A DNA stretch of 35,481 nucleotides from a virus. Location: the IMG/VR virus record IMGVR_UViG_3300031565_000179. The stretch is one strand, 5' to 3'. Positions 1 through 35,481 of the stretch are shown here, in pieces. The translations under genes were made by a program, and so were the position numbers. Position 1 is the first letter of the stretch. Every line of letters begins with the position of its first letter. A model generated the notes under the pieces. That model was given only the letters and a program-made list of their open reading frames with translations. It was not told the origin of the DNA and searched no databases.

Positions 1-127
1 AGCTGGAATATAGCTTCCTTTGACAAGGTCCCCGAACCTATCGCCAACTTGATTGAAGGCGGCCAATACTCGACCGTGTCGGTCGAGATTGAAGACGAAG
101 TCGGGGAATACGGCCCCGTAATAACGG
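1..127. repeat. Terminal overlap: bases 1-127 are identical to 35355-35481
   Basis: Read base by base: agctggaatatagcttcc...ccccgtaataacgg occurs at both window ends in direct orientation. This implies a circular or circularly permuted molecule with a unit length of about 35,354 bp. Confidence 0.95.
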
Positions 128-1287
128 GCGTCGCCCTGCTTGGCGCGGAAGAACCGGCAGTTGAAGGGGCGACAACCGAAAGGGCCCTGGTATTCGGCGG
201 GACTAGACAAGGCGCGCGGGTATGGTCGTTCAAGGTTGGCGACGATATTCCAATGTCCGAACTGAAAGCCGAATTCGACGACATACGGGGCAAGCTTGCC
301 GAAATCGTGAAGGGCAAGCGTGGTGCGCCAATATTCAGGGCCATGTTCGGCAACCTTTCGGAATTGTTCGAACGGTTGACGGCGGGGAAACACGCCGCCC
401 AGGACGACGCGGAAGTCCTGGCCGAAATCCGCGCTTATGCCGTCCAGGAATATCAAGGGAACGTTCAACCCCTTATCGCCTGGGCGGGGACCGTCGGCTT
501 CGACGCTTGCGTTGCCGCTTTGACGGGAAAGCCTGGCATTACCGACCCGACCCGCGTTTGTGGTTGGTTGAAAGGCCAGGCGCATTCAAAATCGAATGAA
601 GGGGGAACTGACATGAATTTACCGAAAGCACTTCAAGGGAAGAAGCCCGAAGATATTCGGGCAATGAGCATTCCCGACCTGGCGAAGCTTTTCGCGGAAG
701 GGGAAACCCCGAAGGTTGAAGAACTGAAGGCCGCCTTCCAGGAAGGCGAACTGGCCGCCATTGCCGCGGCCCTGGGCCTGGGCGAAGAAGCGACCGTCGA
801 AGACATGGTCGCCGCCATAACTGCCTTGACTGAAAAGGCCGCCGCCGCCGGCGAAGGCGAAGGCGCGAAACCGCCTGAAGGCGAAATGGGGAAGGAATTC
901 GCGAAAGCGAACGACCGTATCGCCAACCTGGAAAAGACCCTGGCAAGCGAACGAAGTCTTCGGGAATGGGAAACCAGGACCGCGGAATTCACGACCATTC
1001 CAGGAACACCCCACGAACACGCCGTAAGCCTGGCCGACATTGAAGGCAAGGCCGGCAAGGACGCCGCGGAAACCCAGTTCAAGGCCCTGGAACACGCGAA
1101 CAAGCTGGCCGCTGAAGCGACGAAGGTCGTTGGAACCGCGCGGACCGGCGGCGTGACCGACTTCGACAACGAAGTCAAAAGGTATATGTCCGAACACAAG
1201 GACGCGACGAAGGTCCAGGCGATTGAAGCCGTATCGAAGGAACGGCCCGACCTGTATTTCGCCAGGCGTGAAGGTTGGGACCAGTAA
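1..1287 (+). CDS. Prohead protease/scaffold fusion protein, 3' portion (about 615 aa once joined to 34794..35354)
   Basis: Codons from base 1 (SWNIASFDKVPEPIANLIEGG...) match the end of the 34794 ORF. The C-terminal half is Ala/Glu/Lys-rich and coiled-coil-like, typical of scaffolds. The gene sits directly upstream of the decoration and major capsid genes. Confidence 0.65.
   Translation, partial: SWNIASFDKVPEPIANLIEGGQYSTVSVEIEDEVGEYGPVITGVALLGAEEPAVEGATTERALVFGGTRQGARVWSFKVGDDIPMSELKAEFDDIRGKLAEIVKGKRGAPIFRAMFGNLSELFERLTAGKHAAQDDAEVLAEIRAYAVQEYQGNVQPLIAWAGTVGFDACVAALTGKPGITDPTRVCGWLKGQAHSKSNEGGTDMNLPKALQGKKPEDIRAMSIPDLAKLFAEGETPKVEELKAAFQEGELAAIAAALGLGEEATVEDMVAAITALTEKAAAAGEGEGAKPPEGEMGKEFAKANDRIANLEKTLASERSLREWETRTAEFTTIPGTPHEHAVSLADIEGKAGKDAAETQFKALEHANKLAAEATKVVGTARTGGVTDFDNEVKRYMSEHKDATKVQAIEAVSKERPDLYFARREGWDQ
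613..1287 (+). CDS. Nested in-frame scaffold protein (internal start within the protease/scaffold gene)
   Basis: A consensus RBS AAGGGGGA (599-606) lies 7 nt upstream of in-frame ATG 613 inside the larger ORF. The arrangement is analogous to Mu I/Z and lambda C/Nu3. Confidence 0.5.
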   Translation: MNLPKALQGKKPEDIRAMSIPDLAKLFAEGETPKVEELKAAFQEGELAAIAAALGLGEEATVEDMVAAITALTEKAAAAGEGEGAKPPEGEMGKEFAKANDRIANLEKTLASERSLREWETRTAEFTTIPGTPHEHAVSLADIEGKAGKDAAETQFKALEHANKLAAEATKVVGTARTGGVTDFDNEVKRYMSEHKDATKVQAIEAVSKERPDLYFARREGWDQ

Positions 1288-1325
1288 ACGGTCCCGAATA
1301 AAATCTGAATAAGGGGGAAAGTTCA

Positions 1326-1724
1326 ATGGGAATGAACGAAAAGCTTATCTGGACGGAAAGCATGAAGACGGCTTCTTCGCTGGCCGACTATTCGTCCAAA
1401 CAATACTACGGGGCAAAACTGAACGACGACCGCGAAGTTATCCTTCCGACTGGGGATACCGACGTGCCGTACGGTCTTGTCCTGAATAAACCTGGAAACA
1501 GCAAGGACGCGTCCCTGCTTATTATCGGTCGGGCCCCTGGCGTGGTCGCGGAAGCGATTACCGCGGGCCAAAAGGTTCGCATTGCCAGCGGGGGCAAAGT
1601 CGCCCTTTGGGAAAAGACGGATACTTCAATGTATTGCGTCGGGACTTGCGTCGAAGGCGCGGGCGACGACGGGGAAATGGGGGTCTTTGACTTCGTGTTC
1701 CCGAACGCGATTGTTACTGCTTAA
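1326..1724 (+). CDS. Head decoration protein candidate (DUF2190-like)
   Basis: 132 aa with RBS AAGGGGGA. It lies between the scaffold and major capsid genes. The Gly/Val-rich beta pattern (...GRAPGVVAEAITAGQKVRIASGGKVALW...) resembles DUF2190 decoration proteins. Confidence 0.5.
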   Translation: MGMNEKLIWTESMKTASSLADYSSKQYYGAKLNDDREVILPTGDTDVPYGLVLNKPGNSKDASLLIIGRAPGVVAEAITAGQKVRIASGGKVALWEKTDTSMYCVGTCVEGAGDDGEMGVFDFVFPNAIVTA

Positions 1725-1763
1725 ACCGCGTCAATGAAATATTGAAAAGGGGGAAATTCTAAA

Positions 1764-34533: not shown

Positions 34534-34559
34534 ATGACCGCCCGAAAGTTGGCCCGACC

Positions 34560-34600
34560 GACCCCGTTGACGGATAACCGTCTTCGGGGTCTTTTATTTT
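34560..34600 (+). terminator. Strong rho-independent terminator
   Basis: gaccccg-tt-gacgg-ataa-ccgtc-tt-cggggtc (34560-34591), followed by TTTTATTTT. Confidence 0.8.
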
Positions 34601-34623
34601 ACGGCCTGGTCGGGACGAAGGAA

Positions 34624-34833
34624 ATGGAGTGCCCGAATTGCAAAGCGGAATTGAAATTGAACGAAGAACTATCCCGCGGAATGGGGAACCAGGCATTCTT
34701 CGAATGCCCCCGTTGCGGGCTTGCCGCGTTGTATTCGGGCGATATTCTAACGCAATGCTGGCCGCCCCAGGGCGACCAGGAAGGGGGTCCTAAATGCCAT
34801 TCGGACCATACGGCGACTTCAACGATTGCGTAA
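34624..34833 (+). CDS. Zinc-ribbon protein
   Basis: 69 aa from ATG 34624 (RBS GAAGGA). Contains CPNC...CPRC. The track start at 34534 would overlap the tRNA 3' end and the terminator. The 3' end overlaps the protease gene start by 40 nt. Confidence 0.45.
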   Translation: MECPNCKAELKLNEELSRGMGNQAFFECPRCGLAALYSGDILTQCWPPQGDQEGGPKCHSDHTATSTIA

Positions 34834-35481
34834 TGAAGAACGGGGACAAATCGAACCCCGAAGCCTTTTGCGCGTGGCTTGAACATAAGATAACGGGGGC
34901 CTGGCCTGGTCACTTATCGGCCGACAAGTACCCCGAACAATTCTGGACCGCTTACGACGCCGCCTTGTCCGCGAAGAAGGCCGACAAGGAAGCTTACCAG
35001 GAAGCGGTCACGGCGGCCGAAGCCGCCGGTTATTCATTGACCCGCTTCGGTTGGGTCAAGGAATTCCAGGCCCCGAACATGAAGACCATTACCGGCGTTC
35101 GTGTTTTCGGGTCCGGAACCTGGACCGATAGCGCGGGGTTCGAACGAACCTGGTCGGACCAGGACCTTGACAATATGATTGCCGCTTTTGCGGCGGGGGT
35201 TCCCGCCGTCGTCCCGCTTAAATGCGGGCATACGTCCGACGAATTCAATATGCGGATAGCGGAAGCCCTGGGCGTTCCCGTCGAAAACGTGACGGGGGAC
35301 CACGGCCAGGGTCAAATTGCTTTGGGGCGAATGGTCGCCCTTCAGCGGAAGGGAAGCTGGAATATAGCTTCCTTTGACAAGGTCCCCGAACCTATCGCCA
35401 ACTTGATTGAAGGCGGCCAATACTCGACCGTGTCGGTCGAGATTGAAGACGAAGTCGGGGAATACGGCCCCGTAATAACGG
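34794..35481 (+). CDS. Prohead protease/scaffold fusion protein, 5' portion (runs off the window end and continues at base 128)
   Basis: ATG 34794 lies 7 nt after AAGGGGG. The ORF is absent from the track because no stop occurs before the window end. Translation MPFGPYGDFNDCVMKNGDKSNPEAFCAWLEHKITG...VFGSGTWTD...PLKCGHTSDEF resembles Mu gpI-type head protease N-termini. The frame is continuous with ORF 49..1287 through the overlap. Confidence 0.6.
   Translation, partial: MPFGPYGDFNDCVMKNGDKSNPEAFCAWLEHKITGAWPGHLSADKYPEQFWTAYDAALSAKKADKEAYQEAVTAAEAAGYSLTRFGWVKEFQAPNMKTITGVRVFGSGTWTDSAGFERTWSDQDLDNMIAAFAAGVPAVVPLKCGHTSDEFNMRIAEALGVPVENVTGDHGQGQIALGRMVALQRKGSWNIASFDKVPEPIANLIEGGQYSTVSVEIEDEVGEYGPVIT
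35355..35481. repeat. Second copy of the 127-bp terminal overlap
   Basis: Identical to 1-127. An ORF reads straight through the junction in frame. Confidence 0.95.

What the first reader, a model, noticed from the sequence alone, without database searches (positions are those of the whole stretch)
1..35481. Genome-wide near-absence of the trinucleotide GAG/CTC, in coding and non-coding DNA
I scanned every line by eye and found only about 27 GAG and about 13 CTC on the + strand in 35.35 kb.
- GAG starts at 85, 666, 2817, 2819, 5971, 5996, 6440, 6545, 7854, 8890, 10834, 14697, 20193, 22374, 22584, 23118, 23120, 23142, 23154, 24208, 28524, 29887, 30079, 31941, 33376, 33987 and 34627.
- CTC starts at 69, 2168, 2334, 2878, 4362, 8595, 9513, 13409, 15630, 17957, 20669, 27537 and 29933.

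In a G+C-rich sequence of this length, each would be expected several hundred times.

Several observations argue for a DNA-level constraint rather than simple codon preference:
- Glu is almost always GAA, although Lys is mostly AAG and the genome is GC-rich.
- Out-of-frame GAG (xGA Gxx, xxG AGx) is also missing.
- The 370-bp non-coding region 13946-14314 has none.
- Both strand-complementary forms are depleted, although every gene is on one strand.
- The RBS is GGGGG instead of GGAGG.
- The tRNA gene lacks the GAG and CTC found in its bacterial counterpart.

GAA/TTC, AAG/CTT, GAATTC and CCWGG look correspondingly over-represented. I know of no restriction or defence system with a 3-bp target, so the cause is open. 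It could be a very short-motif nuclease or defence, a phage-encoded enzyme whose site must be unique, or an unusual host-wide bias.
Basis: seen in the sequence. Interest (0 to 1): 0.8.

Follow-up and report, generated by a model that had tools for sequence, protein, structure and literature searches.

The report
Phage genome purged of GAG/CTC
A 35-kb phage genome and about 30 relatives from independent metagenomes have lost roughly 95% of their expected GAG/CTC trinucleotides, together with about twenty other short words such as GATC, most likely to escape host DNA-cutting defences; if so, one of those defences reads only three base pairs, shorter than any fully specified restriction site known.

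Summary
The window has 28 GAG and 14 CTC, against about 494 and 424 expected (O/E 0.06 and 0.03). It is a constraint on the DNA, not codon preference: out-of-frame, non-coding, ribosome-binding-site and tRNA positions are all purged, on both strands. It is not an artefact: two assemblers give the same 35,354-bp circle, and relatives from more than 20 datasets share the depletion, whereas 113 unrelated loci never fall below O/E 0.58.

New here: GAG/CTC is the extreme member of a suite of avoided short words.
- GATC 0, CCSGG 0, GANTC 0; CTAG, GTAC, TGCA, GATG, GCAG, GTGC and GGTG all strongly depleted.
- Many 6-bp palindromes are absent.
- GANTC, GTAC and CCGG switch on or off between sub-lineages.

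The window has no detectable methyltransferase. The uniformly relaxed relatives with enough sequence (L024, L018) carry methyltransferases. Imported gene islands have normal GAG density. All eight GAGN/NGAG contexts fall together in every depleted genome.

Best reading (about 45%): selection by a methylation-sensitive, restriction-type host nuclease whose determinant is just GAG/CTC. The host and the enzyme are unidentified. Rivals are several longer GAG-containing sites, CRISPR PAM avoidance, mutational decay, and a phage-encoded nuclease. I class it as a new variant of restriction-site avoidance.

The parts
1..35354 (.). Unique circular phage genome, depleted about 20-30-fold in GAG/CTC on both strands in all contexts. 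It carries 27 GAG and 13 CTC on the + strand.
   Evidence: The same circle was assembled independently: ENA ERZ27256834 contig k141_4720218 is 35,495 nt, which equals 35,354 + 141.
35355..35481 (.). Terminal duplicate of bases 1-127, an assembly overlap of a circular contig. It holds the duplicate sites CTC 35423 and GAG 35439.
   Evidence: repeat D1, 100% identity, spacing 35,354.
69..87 (+). Residual CTC (69) and GAG (85) form the outer ends of a perfect 8-bp inverted repeat, CTCGACCG-TGT-CGGTCGAG, inside the 615-aa ORF. GAG 85 is kept in 12 of 17 relatives.
2817..2821 (+). Residual GAGAG (TGG AGA GGA, codons 5-7 of gene 2803-3714). It is identical in all 8 aligned relatives, although Arg could be encoded without GAG.
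23035..23083 (+). Two iteron-like repeats (GGTCAACTTGACAC) inside the DnaD/O-like initiator gene 22629-23486; putative replication origin.
   Evidence: D5; phrog_6493/11233.
23118..23156 (+). Cluster of four residual GAG sites (CCAGAGAGTAACC ... CAGAGA ... CAGAGA) next to the iterons. It is conserved in L004/L054, L062, L006 and L012. These sites are probably functionally constrained origin elements.
1746..1753 (+). Example of the rewritten Shine-Dalgarno sequence, AAAGGGGG (G.U wobble to CCUCC) in place of AAGGAGG. Genome-wide there are 59 GGGGG-N3-10-start matches and no GGAGG.
   Evidence: repeats D13 and D16.
14696..14699 (+). GGAG Shine-Dalgarno sequence upstream of gene 14710-15732, the first gene after the non-coding region; one of only three GGAG/GAGG-type matches before a start codon in the genome.
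13946..14314 (.). Non-coding region of 369 nt with no GAG or CTC.
34460..34533 (+). Initiator-like tRNA-Met. The anticodon loop is CCCAUUA (34490-34496). The normally invariant U33 is C (34491), which removes the CTC of the canonical CUCAU.
   Evidence: The canonical CTCAT is kept in non-depleted L018 and in L004/L012. U33 to C is seen in the window, L011, L003 and L044.
31941..31943 (+). Residual GAG spanning ATG|AGG in the portal gene. About half the relatives have switched to ATG CGC/CGG, an avoidance substitution caught in progress.
34627..34629 (+). Residual GAG at a conserved ATG GAG TGC (Met-Glu-Cys, residues 31-33 of the ORF as called from 34534), directly downstream of an AAGGAA SD-like motif and possibly the true start; kept in most relatives.

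Best explanation
The genome has been purged of GAG/CTC by natural selection acting on double-stranded DNA. The most likely agent is a restriction-type, methylation-sensitive nuclease, or another motif-reading defence, in the still unidentified bacterial host. Its effective determinant would be just the asymmetric trinucleotide GAG/CTC.

The phage carries no detectable methyltransferase, so its incoming DNA is unprotected. Each site removed raises the chance that the injected genome survives. Selection has therefore replaced GAG/CTC in four ways:
- through synonymous and context-dependent codon choice;
- in non-coding DNA;
- in ribosome-binding sites (GGAGG to GGGGG);
- in a tRNA anticodon loop (U33 to C).

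The same strategy has removed about 20 other short words, many of them classical restriction sites.

Shown: the depletion, its DNA-level and strand-symmetric nature, its restriction to one clade, the accompanying suite of avoided words, and the link between methyltransferases and relaxation.

Inferred: that the agent is a nuclease, that it belongs to the host, and that a single 3-bp determinant underlies the pattern rather than several longer sites.
For: (1) The constraint is on the DNA and is strand-symmetric, in all frames and in non-coding DNA.

(2) GAG/CTC sits at the top of a suite of avoided words typical of restriction avoidance:
- GATC 0 of 129 expected, CTAG 7, GTAC 15, TGCA 17;
- CCSGG 0 and GANTC 0;
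- GTCGAC, CATATG, CCATGG, TCATGA, AGGCCT, ACCGGT and GTATAC all 0;
- asymmetric GATG/CATC, GCAG/CTGC, GTGC/GCAC and GGTG/CACC at O/E 0.02-0.10.

(3) GANTC, GTAC and CCGG are near zero (0.00-0.38) in the window's sub-lineage and about 1 in sister lineages. This on/off pattern is what variable R-M repertoires would produce.

(4) Pfam, PHROGs and NCBIfam scans of the window's ORFs found no methyltransferase.
- The uniformly relaxed relative L024 (O/E 0.47) carries a C5-methyltransferase-like gene and a PF01555 methyltransferase with three SPPY motifs.
- L018 (0.78) carries a Dam-like methyltransferase.
- L025/L053 (about 0.2) carries a truncated homologue of the SPPY methyltransferase.
- L024 still has relic GGGGG SD sequences and nests among depleted genomes in the TerL tree.

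(5) All eight GAGN/NGAG classes are depleted together in every one of more than 20 depleted genomes, with no on/off behaviour. This argues for one 3-bp determinant.

(6) The replacement spectrum is diverse: GAG aligns to GAA, GCG, GGG, AAG and GAC; CTC aligns to CCC, TTC, CTT and CGC. That fits selection against the word, not one mutation type.

(7) The pressure overrides function: the SD is rewritten and U33 of a tRNA is mutated in four lineages.

(8) Enzymes with targets of 2-3 bp exist: Nt.CviQII R^AG, Nt.CviPII ^CCD, and phage HNH nickases with 3-7 bp sites (PMC3017599, PMC3592412).
Against: - No restriction enzyme with a fully specified 3-bp site is known. The only ones below 4 bp are the degenerate CviJI, SetI and FaiI (PMC5948728).
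- The host is unknown, so no cognate enzyme or methylase could be shown.
- A 3-bp cutter would meet about 1,000 sites in an unadapted genome. A smooth selective path then requires inefficient cleavage per site.
- Islands with 60-80 sites are tolerated in some relatives.
- The methyltransferase-relaxation link rests on only 2-3 independent lineages. It could equally reflect a host switch.
- The several asymmetric 4-mers co-vary with GAG, which could point to one unknown process rather than many enzymes.
Confidence: 0.45

Rival explanations
1. Restriction avoidance, but with no 3-bp enzyme. The host lineage carries several enzymes (Type IIS, IIG or III) with 4-6-bp sites that contain GAG, such as CCTC/GAGG, GAGC, CTCGAG, GAGTC or CTNAG. 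Their union empties the trinucleotide.
For: The same genomes avoid at least five other asymmetric 4-mers and many palindromes, so the host repertoire is evidently very large. In the relaxing genome 553_19, GAGG and GGAG stay more depleted than GAGC and CGAG, which hints at context-specific components. Residual sites are biased towards A/T flanks.
Against: All 16 NGAGN contexts are at or below 0.13 of expectation. All eight 4-mer classes fall together in every depleted genome, whereas genuine individual sites (GANTC, GTAC, CCGG) switch on and off. At least four independent enzymes, always co-occurring, would be needed.
Confidence: 0.15
2. CRISPR PAM avoidance. The host's Type I (or other) CRISPR-Cas system uses GAG (or CTC) as its protospacer-adjacent motif. 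Removing PAMs lowers, site by site, the chance of spacer acquisition and interference.
For: PAMs are 2-4 nt and asymmetric, and they act on either strand. Selection per site is additive, which fits the continuous gradient among relatives (O/E 0.02-0.47) and the tolerance of GAG-rich islands. PAM depletion has been reported (PMC4246573, PMC12174588). Secondary depletion of TAG and GTG resembles the promiscuous PAM sets of Type I systems.
Against: Published PAM depletions are not described as near-complete (abstracts of PMC4246573 and PMC12174588; 'modest' is my own recollection), whereas this one is more than 95%. From my own knowledge, GAG is not a canonical PAM of any characterised subtype. 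The motif travels with classical restriction palindromes, and relaxation coincides with methyltransferase genes, which should not affect Cascade or Cas9. A metagenome scan next to the conserved GAG at position 85 found no CRISPR array, but that pattern was too degenerate to be informative.
Confidence: 0.12
3. Context-specific mutational decay rather than selection. For example, dense cytosine methylation at CTC followed by deamination (as in CpG decay), or a deaminase or repair bias, converts CTC to TTC/CTT and GAG to GAA/AAG.
For: The transition products GAA/TTC and AAG/CTT are the most over-represented trinucleotides, also out of frame. Several avoided words co-vary across genomes as if driven by one process. 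Imported islands look un-ameliorated.
Against: The replacement spectrum includes many changes at the middle base and many transversions: GAG to GCG/GGG, and CTC to CCC (27%) and CGC. SD sites changed A to G (GGAGG to GGGGG) and the tRNA changed T to C; a C-to-T process would do neither. Functionally constrained sites were altered, which needs selection. No methyltransferase or deaminase is detectable in the window.
Confidence: 0.08
4. Self-avoidance. The phage itself encodes a frequent-cutting nuclease or nickase specific for GAG/CTC, used to destroy host DNA as chloroviruses do. It protects its own genome by lacking the site instead of methylating it.
For: The depletion is confined to one phage clade. 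Other phages sharing single genes (radical SAM, Mini-A, TerL at 41% identity or less) are normal. The window has many ORFs without annotation, and a Spo11/Topo VI-A-like 'Mini-A' gene at 16522-17388 that occurs in the most strongly depleted genomes. Chlorovirus nickases with 3-nt sites are a precedent (PMC3017599).
Against: No HNH, GIY-YIG or PD-(D/E)XK nuclease was detected apart from RuvC and TerL. Mini-A is absent from depleted L053 and L061, and its distant homologues' phages show no motif loss. One nuclease cannot explain about 20 avoided words or the sub-lineage on/off palindromes. Islands with 60-80 sites would be self-cleaved.
Confidence: 0.07
5. Artefact of sequencing, assembly or base-calling, for instance systematic miscalls at a modified motif.
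For: The GGGGG-for-GGAGG pattern could superficially look like an A-to-G miscall.
Against: The overlaps (127 and 141 nt) equal the k-mer lengths of two different short-read assemblers, and both give the same 35,354-bp circle. More than 25 relatives from more than 20 datasets share the depletion. Normal-density islands sit inside the same contigs. The + strand ORFs called as genes are uninterrupted, and proteins align to homologues at 67-87% identity.
Confidence: 0.01

Closest known systems
Restriction-site avoidance in phage genomes. Classical cases, from my own knowledge: Bacillus phages lacking GGCC/GCNGC sites, staphylococcal phage K lacking GATC, T7. The systematic survey for host genomes is PMC4687349.
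   Same: Strand-symmetric loss of short recognition words, independent of reading frame, in a phage without its own methyltransferase. Bona fide 4-6-bp palindromic sites are lost alongside (GATC, CTAG, GTAC, TGCA, CCSGG, GANTC, GTCGAC and others). There is lineage-specific on/off variation, and relatives carrying methyltransferases are relaxed.
   Different: The chief target is only 3 bp and asymmetric. No restriction enzyme with such a fully specified site is known (PMC5948728). About 1,200 expected sites have been reduced to 40. About 20 words are avoided at once. The avoidance rewrites SD sequences and a tRNA loop.
PAM depletion in phages targeted by CRISPR-Cas (PMC4246573; PMC12174588)
   Same: A short (2-3 nt), asymmetric motif is depleted on both strands, with additive per-site selection.
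   Different: Reported depletions are statistical shifts and are not described as near-complete. Here more than 95% of sites are removed. No host CRISPR system or spacers have been linked to the clade. The depletion co-occurs with restriction palindromes and with a methyltransferase-associated relaxation.
Frequent-cutting nickase and methylase pairs of chloroviruses (Nt.CviQII R^AG with M.CviQII; Nt.CviPII ^CCD), and phage HNH nickases with 3-7-bp sites (PMC3017599, PMC3592412)
   Same: They show that proteins can read 2-3-bp asymmetric words. R^AG even includes GAG. They are used in virus-host conflict.
   Different: Those viruses protect themselves by methylation, not by losing the site. AAG, the other half of RAG, is strongly enriched here. 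No homologous nickase was found in the window.
CpG depletion in vertebrate genomes and vertebrate-infecting viruses (methylation-deamination; ZAP sensing); from my own knowledge
   Same: Genome-wide loss of a very short word, with an excess of its transition products.
   Different: The substitution spectrum here is not restricted to transitions. The depletion is deeper (O/E 0.03-0.06). It acts on phage double-stranded DNA.

Membership tests
Restriction-site avoidance (R-M driven) | The word is depleted on both strands irrespective of reading frame and coding status. | tested here: met
Restriction-site avoidance (R-M driven) | Recognised restriction sites (short palindromes) are co-avoided in the same genome. 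| tested here: met
   GATC 0, CTAG 7, GTAC 15, TGCA 17, CCSGG 0, GANTC 0. Twelve of the 22 most under-represented 6-mers are palindromes.
Restriction-site avoidance (R-M driven) | Avoidance varies with exposure: lineage-specific presence or absence, and relaxation when the phage carries protective methyltransferases. | tested here: met
   This is correlational and rests on 2-3 independent relaxed lineages.
Restriction-site avoidance (R-M driven) | A cognate restriction enzyme or methylase with that specificity exists in the host. | not testable with these tools
   The host is unknown. Close relatives are only binned with Dehalococcoidales and Omnitrophota MAGs. Cultured phage relatives are at most 36% identical.
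Restriction-site avoidance (R-M driven) | The avoided word matches a known restriction specificity. | tested here: not met
   Literature: the only enzymes with sites below 4 bp are CviJI, SetI and FaiI, all degenerate (PMC5948728). The nickases are R^AG and ^CCD (PMC3017599). None is GAG.
CRISPR PAM depletion | Short asymmetric motif depleted on both strands. | tested here: met
CRISPR PAM depletion | Spacers against the phage exist, with protospacers flanked by the motif. | tested here: inconclusive
   One metagenome scan next to the conserved GAG at 85 returned 120 loci, 4 of them clade members, and no array.
CRISPR PAM depletion | The host carries a CRISPR subtype that uses this PAM. | not testable with these tools
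   The host is unknown.
Methylation/deamination decay (CpG-like) | Losses are dominated by C-to-T / G-to-A transitions at the motif. | tested here: not met
   CTC to CCC is the commonest replacement against L024. GAG to GCG/GGG is frequent. SD sites changed A to G and the tRNA changed T to C.
Self-avoidance of a phage-encoded frequent cutter (chlorovirus-like) | A site-specific nuclease gene is present in all depleted genomes and absent from non-depleted ones. | tested here: inconclusive
   Pfam, PHROGs and NCBIfam found none. Mini-A (16522-17388) is present in only some depleted genomes. Many ORFs remain unannotated.

The most novel reading that the evidence does not exclude
An uncultured bacterial host carries a methylation-sensitive nuclease or defence system whose whole specificity is the asymmetric trinucleotide GAG/CTC. 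That would be the shortest fully specified restriction target known. It has driven an entire phage genus to delete about 95% of these sites, to rewrite its Shine-Dalgarno sequences, and to mutate the invariant U33 of a tRNA.
Probability: 0.4. Interest if true: 0.8.

Novelty: new variant of a known kind. Interest (0 to 1): 0.68.

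Why it matters
If the reading is right, this phage clade is a natural readout of a host defence that nobody has characterised: a nuclease, or other DNA sensor, with a 3-bp asymmetric target. Its existence and specificity could be predicted from phage sequence alone and then looked for in the MAGs and methylomes of the same samples.

It is also an extreme case of how far motif avoidance can go.
- About 20 words are purged at once.
- Translation signals are rewritten: GGAGG becomes GGGGG, which pairs by G.U wobble.
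- The normally invariant U33 of a tRNA is changed.

This bears on how much sequence space a phage can give up to evade immunity. The contrast with close relatives, where genomes carrying methyltransferases re-accumulate the sites, gives a built-in evolutionary experiment on two anti-restriction strategies: avoid the site or methylate it. Practically, a true GAG-specific enzyme would be a new ultra-frequent cutter or nickase.

Tried and rejected
- Codon preference or tRNA supply: rejected. Out-of-frame and non-coding sites are equally purged.
- Artefact: rejected. There are two assemblies, many datasets, and normal-density islands inside depleted contigs.
- Avoidance of internal SD-like sequences, or cleavage by an RNA-level endoribonuclease: rejected. 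CTC on the coding strand is at least as depleted as GAG, and every flanking context is affected.
- Radical SAM gene (25001-25780) as part of a DNA-modification pathway: no support. It is SplB/PA0069-like; no QueC, QueD or DpdA was found; phages with related genes are not depleted.
- ORF 27466-28566 looked correlated with depletion. By eye it has an NlpC/P60-type Cys motif and is probably a lysin, so a marker of the host rather than the cause. It has no hit in Pfam, NCBIfam, PHROGs or the PDB.
- Mini-A/Topo VI-A-like gene as the cause: not supported.
- Host identification failed on four routes. There was no megablast hit in INPHARED. Cultured phages are at most 36% identical. The GTDB scan gave only two MAG bins, which are probably binned phage contigs. 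The 1401-aa tail protein has no IMG/VR relatives.
- The spacer search in metagenomes was uninformative.
- CCWGG and GAATTC enrichment as an independent signal: mostly a by-product. A codon-swap simulation that minimises the avoided words raises CCWGG from about 143 to about 280 (observed 458 in coding DNA) and GAATTC to 22-25 (observed 29).
- An exact-sequence look-up of TerL with the TTG start found nothing because of the start-codon choice. The capsid protein look-up worked.

Full report
**1.

Exact counting gives 28 GAG and 14 CTC on the + strand.

The two extra sites lie in a 127-nt terminal duplication: bases 1-127 equal 35355-35481. The contig is therefore a circle of 35,354 bp, carrying 27 GAG and 13 CTC.

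- Zero-order expectation is 748 and 510.
- First-order Markov expectation is 494 and 424, giving O/E 0.057 and 0.033.
- The next lowest trinucleotides are TAG (0.31) and GTG (0.33).

**2. It is a constraint on the DNA, not codon preference**

The window is a tailed phage with the genes called here all on the + strand. Annotated genes include:
- large terminase, 30118-31614;
- Mu-like portal, 31705-33126;
- capsid-like protein, 1764-2726;
- DnaD/O-like initiator, 22629-23486;
- DnaC-like loader, RuvC, and a radical SAM protein.

Codon usage:

| Amino acid | Codons |
|---|---|
| Glu | GAA 771, GAG 14 |
| Leu | CTC 2 of 881 |
| Lys | AAG 431, AAA 121 |

I shuffled synonymous codons so that the genome's own, already GAG-poor, codon usage was preserved:

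| Word and frame | Observed | Expected |
|---|---|---|
| GAG, frame 2 | 3 | 90 |
| GAG, frame 3 | 7 | 70 |
| CTC, frame 2 | 3 | 48 |
| CTC, frame 3 | 6 | 121 |

A second shuffle on a slightly trimmed gene set gave pooled out-of-frame totals of 10 GAG and 9 CTC, with z = -14.5 and -15.7.

Further points:
- Non-coding DNA (2,210 nt) has 3 sites where about 48 are expected. Region 13946-14314 has none.
- All 16 NGAGN contexts are at or below 0.13 of expectation. A/T flanks are the least depleted.
- Shine-Dalgarno sequences read AAAGGGGG. There are 59 GGGGG-N3-10-start matches and no GGAGG. The non-depleted relatives L018 and L021 use GGAG/GAGG.

**3. It is not an artefact**

- The 127-nt overlap equals the largest k-mer that SPAdes uses by default, which points to a short-read de Bruijn assembly of a circular genome (inference from my own knowledge of the assembler).
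- The same genome is on record as ENA ERZ27256834 contig k141_4720218, of 35,495 nt, which is 35,354 + 141.
- The + strand ORFs called as genes are uninterrupted.
- Contigs that are otherwise depleted contain islands with normal GAG density.

**4. It is a property of one phage clade**

TerL, portal, radical SAM, ORF 27466 and Mini-A probes retrieved relatives from more than 20 IMG/VR datasets. A further two came from GenBank MAG bins and four from metagenome contigs.

- Nearly all genomes with TerL at least 67% identical show Markov O/E of 0.02-0.24.
- L024 has 0.47, L018 has 0.78 and L021 has 0.99.
- TerL relatives at 41% identity or less are normal, at 0.72-0.97.
- Phages that share only a radical SAM or a Mini-A homologue are also normal.
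- In a TerL tree, L024 nests among depleted genomes, and L018/L021 are sister to the depleted L019/L026. L024 still carries GGGGG-type SD sequences next to GGAG ones. It looks secondarily relaxed.

Several depleted genomes contain islands of 1-3 kb with 25-35 sites per kb:
- L005/L061: PAPS-reductase-like and initiator genes;
- L019: a repeat protein;
- L044: an IS1595 transposase and a short C5-methyltransferase-like gene;
- L016.

These islands are also normal for the other asymmetric avoided words. GATC and, in most islands, CCSGG remain at 0; L016 has near-normal GATC and the L044 island has normal CCSGG. They are recent imports.

**5. GAG/CTC is the most extreme member of a suite of avoided words**

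| Word | Observed | Expected or O/E |
|---|---|---|
| GATC | 0 | 129 |
| CTAG | 7 | 129 |
| GTAC | 15 | 129 |
| TGCA | 17 | 129 |
| CCSGG | 0 | O/E 0.00 |
| GANTC | 0 | O/E 0.00 |
| GATG/CATC | 6 (both strands) | 263 |
| GCAG/CTGC | 12 (both strands) | 359 |
| GTGC/GCAC | 23 (both strands) | 359 |
| GGTG/CACC | 35 (both strands) | 359 |
| ACAG/CTGT | 41 (both strands) | 263 |
| TAG/CTA overall | | O/E 0.21 |

- GTCGAC, CATATG, CCATGG, TCATGA, AGGCCT, ACCGGT and GTATAC are all absent.
- Each asymmetric word is depleted in both orientations on the coding strand, relative to the synonymous shuffle.
- Across relatives, GAG, GATC, CTAG, TGCA, CCSGG, GATG and GCAG are low in all depleted genomes.
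- GANTC, GTAC and CCGG are near zero (0.00-0.38) in the window's sub-lineage (the window, L054, L062, L001, L003) and about 1 in most other lineages; CCGG is also zero in a few of these (L009, L013, L014, L017).
- All of these words relax together in L025/L053, L024, L018 and L021.

CCWGG has 535 sites against 104 expected, and GAATTC has 35 against 5.6. A codon-swap simulation that only minimises the avoided words raises CCWGG from about 143 to about 280 (458 observed in coding DNA). It raises GAATTC to 22-25 (29 observed). The enrichment is therefore largely a by-product: CCWGG is the permitted context for CAG/CTG.

**6. Evidence on the cause**

(a) Pfam, PHROGs and NCBIfam found no methyltransferase in the window's ORFs, and no nuclease other than RuvC and TerL.

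(b) The relaxed relatives carry methyltransferases.
- L024 has a 229-aa C5-methyltransferase-like gene just upstream of TerL. It also has a 412-aa PF01555 methyltransferase with three SPPY motifs between TerL and the portal gene.
- L018 has a D12 Dam-like methyltransferase next to a HaeIII-family endonuclease.
- L025/L053 has a truncated homologue of the SPPY enzyme.
- In L044 and L016 a C5-methyltransferase-like gene sits inside a recent island, while the backbone is still depleted. This fits acquisition coming before relaxation.

(c) GAG/CTC positions of non-depleted relatives align in the window to a diverse set of replacements.
- GAG aligns to GAA (about 40%), GCG, GGG, AAG and GAC.
- CTC aligns to CCC (27% against L024), TTC, CTT, TCC and CGC.
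- This is selection against the word, not a single transition process.

(d) All eight GAGN/NGAG classes are depleted together in every depleted genome. The individually switching palindromes behave differently. This favours one 3-bp determinant.

(e) The pressure overrides function. The canonical anticodon loop CTCATAA is kept in non-depleted L018 and in L004/L012. It has become CCCAT or TCCAT (U33 to C) in the window, L011, L003 and L044. The D-stem GGAC/GTC is shared with L018, so it is not an adaptation.

**7. Residual sites**

Many residual sites are sporadic. A subset is conserved:
- the inverted repeat CTCGACCG-TGT-CGGTCGAG at 69-87;
- GAGAG at 2817-2821, identical in all 8 aligned relatives despite using the rare AGA codon;
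- a cluster of four GAG sites at 23118-23156, next to iterons (23035-23083) inside the initiator gene, conserved in L004/L054, L062, L006 and L012;
- ATG|AGG at 31941, where about half the relatives have switched to ATG CGC/CGG;
- ATG GAG at 34627.

These look like functionally constrained positions, or substitutions caught in progress. They do not look like deliberately unique target sites.

**8. Mechanism**

The best-supported reading is classical anti-restriction by site avoidance, pushed to an unusual extreme. The phage has no methyltransferase of its own and has removed the recognition words of its host's DNA-reading defences. For GAG/CTC the agent would be a methylation-sensitive nuclease with a 3-bp asymmetric determinant.

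The continuous gradient among relatives and the tolerance of islands imply weak, roughly additive selection per site. An inefficient cutter or a nickase would give that. CRISPR PAM avoidance would also give it, and remains the main alternative in kind. Against PAM avoidance are the company the motif keeps and the methyltransferase link.

Precedents for proteins that read 2-3 bp exist:
- Nt.CviQII R^AG and Nt.CviPII ^CCD (PMC3017599);
- phage HNH nickases with 3-7-bp sites (PMC3592412).

No restriction enzyme with a fully specified site below 4 bp is known (PMC5948728).

**9. What could not be done**

- The host is unidentified. There are sigma-70-type promoters, TTGACA-17-TACAAT, at 17966, 18447 and 21588 (repeat D10), which point to a bacterium. 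Close relatives are binned with Dehalococcoidales and Omnitrophota MAGs. No cultured phage exceeds 36% identity.
- No cognate enzyme, methylome or spacer could therefore be examined.
- The single metagenome scan was wasted on a pattern that was too degenerate.

**10. Verdict**

The finding is real, very strong, reproducible and specific to one lineage. It is best filed as a new variant of restriction-site avoidance with an unprecedentedly short target. It yields a concrete, testable prediction about an uncharacterised host defence.

Noticed in passing
window 16522-17388 (+): A 288-aa protein with a Spo11/Topo VI-A-type catalytic motif (LRQIYYRL) and a Toprim motif (DHDPSG). It matches phrog_6247 'DNA topoisomerase' at E = 1e-70, so it is a 'Mini-A'-like protein of unknown role. 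It is present in L054, L051, L052 and L066 but absent from L053 and L061. Phages with distant homologues are not GAG-depleted.
   Followed up: partly
window, whole genome: CCWGG occurs 535 times (one per 66 bp, 5.2 times expectation) and GAATTC 35 times (6.2 times). 55% of all CAG/CTG trinucleotides lie inside CCWGG. A simulation shows about half of the CCWGG excess, and most of the GAATTC excess, follow from avoiding the other words. A residual excess of about 1.6-fold in CCWGG is unexplained.
   Followed up: partly
window 34460-34533 (+): The tRNA-Met has initiator-like features: a 1:72 mismatch (C:U) and A11:U24. Its anticodon loop is aberrant (C33, U37), so its functionality is uncertain.
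   Followed up: partly
window 23035-23156 (+): Putative replication origin inside the DnaD/O-like initiator gene: two GGTCAACTTGACAC iterons followed by CAGAGA-type repeats. Similar GTCAACTTGACAC copies occur at 13576 and 31631.
   Followed up: partly
window 34794-35354 joined to 1-1287 (+): A 615-aa ORF runs across the contig junction; it is seen in the independent assembly, L065:7677-9524. Within the window it appears only as the truncated ORF 49-1287. It has no Pfam hit.
   Followed up: partly
window 25001-25780 (+): Radical SAM protein related to the PA0069/Rv2578c (SplB-like, DNA-repair-type) families and to 'radical SAM mobile pair protein B'. It is present in many but not all clade members.
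   Followed up: partly
L024:11470-12708 (+): A 412-aa PF01555 DNA methyltransferase inserted between TerL and the portal gene. It has three tandem SPPY catalytic motifs (residues 168, 220, 274), an unusual architecture. Its weak PDB matches include N4-cytosine and DpnA-type adenine methyltransferases.
   Followed up: partly
L018:3024-5716 and L044:1619-2515: IS1595-family transposases lie inside phage contigs. In L018 the transposase sits next to a Dam-like methyltransferase and a HaeIII-family restriction endonuclease, so this phage carries an R-M-like pair.
   Followed up: no
L006 and L016 (both from IMGVR_UViG_3300037067_002571, 42,316 nt): One contig carries two different TerL genes (79% and 75% identical to the window's). 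It is probably a chimeric assembly of two related phages.
   Followed up: no
window 17966-17995, 18447-18476, 21588-21617 (+): Three near-consensus sigma-70-type promoters (TTGACA, 17-bp spacer, TACAAT) precede early and middle gene blocks. They point to a bacterial host.
   Followed up: no
window 2817-2821 (+): GAGAG, built on the rare Arg codon AGA at codon 6 of gene 2803-3714, is invariant in all 8 aligned relatives even though the genome purges GAG. This suggests an unknown nucleotide-level function; it may be an SD-like GGAGAGGA element.
   Followed up: no
islands in L005, L061, L019, L044 and non-depleted L018, L021: GATC is absent even from imported islands and from the relatives that are not GAG-depleted. 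GATC avoidance is therefore broader, in ecology or phylogeny, than the GAG/CTC avoidance.
   Followed up: partly
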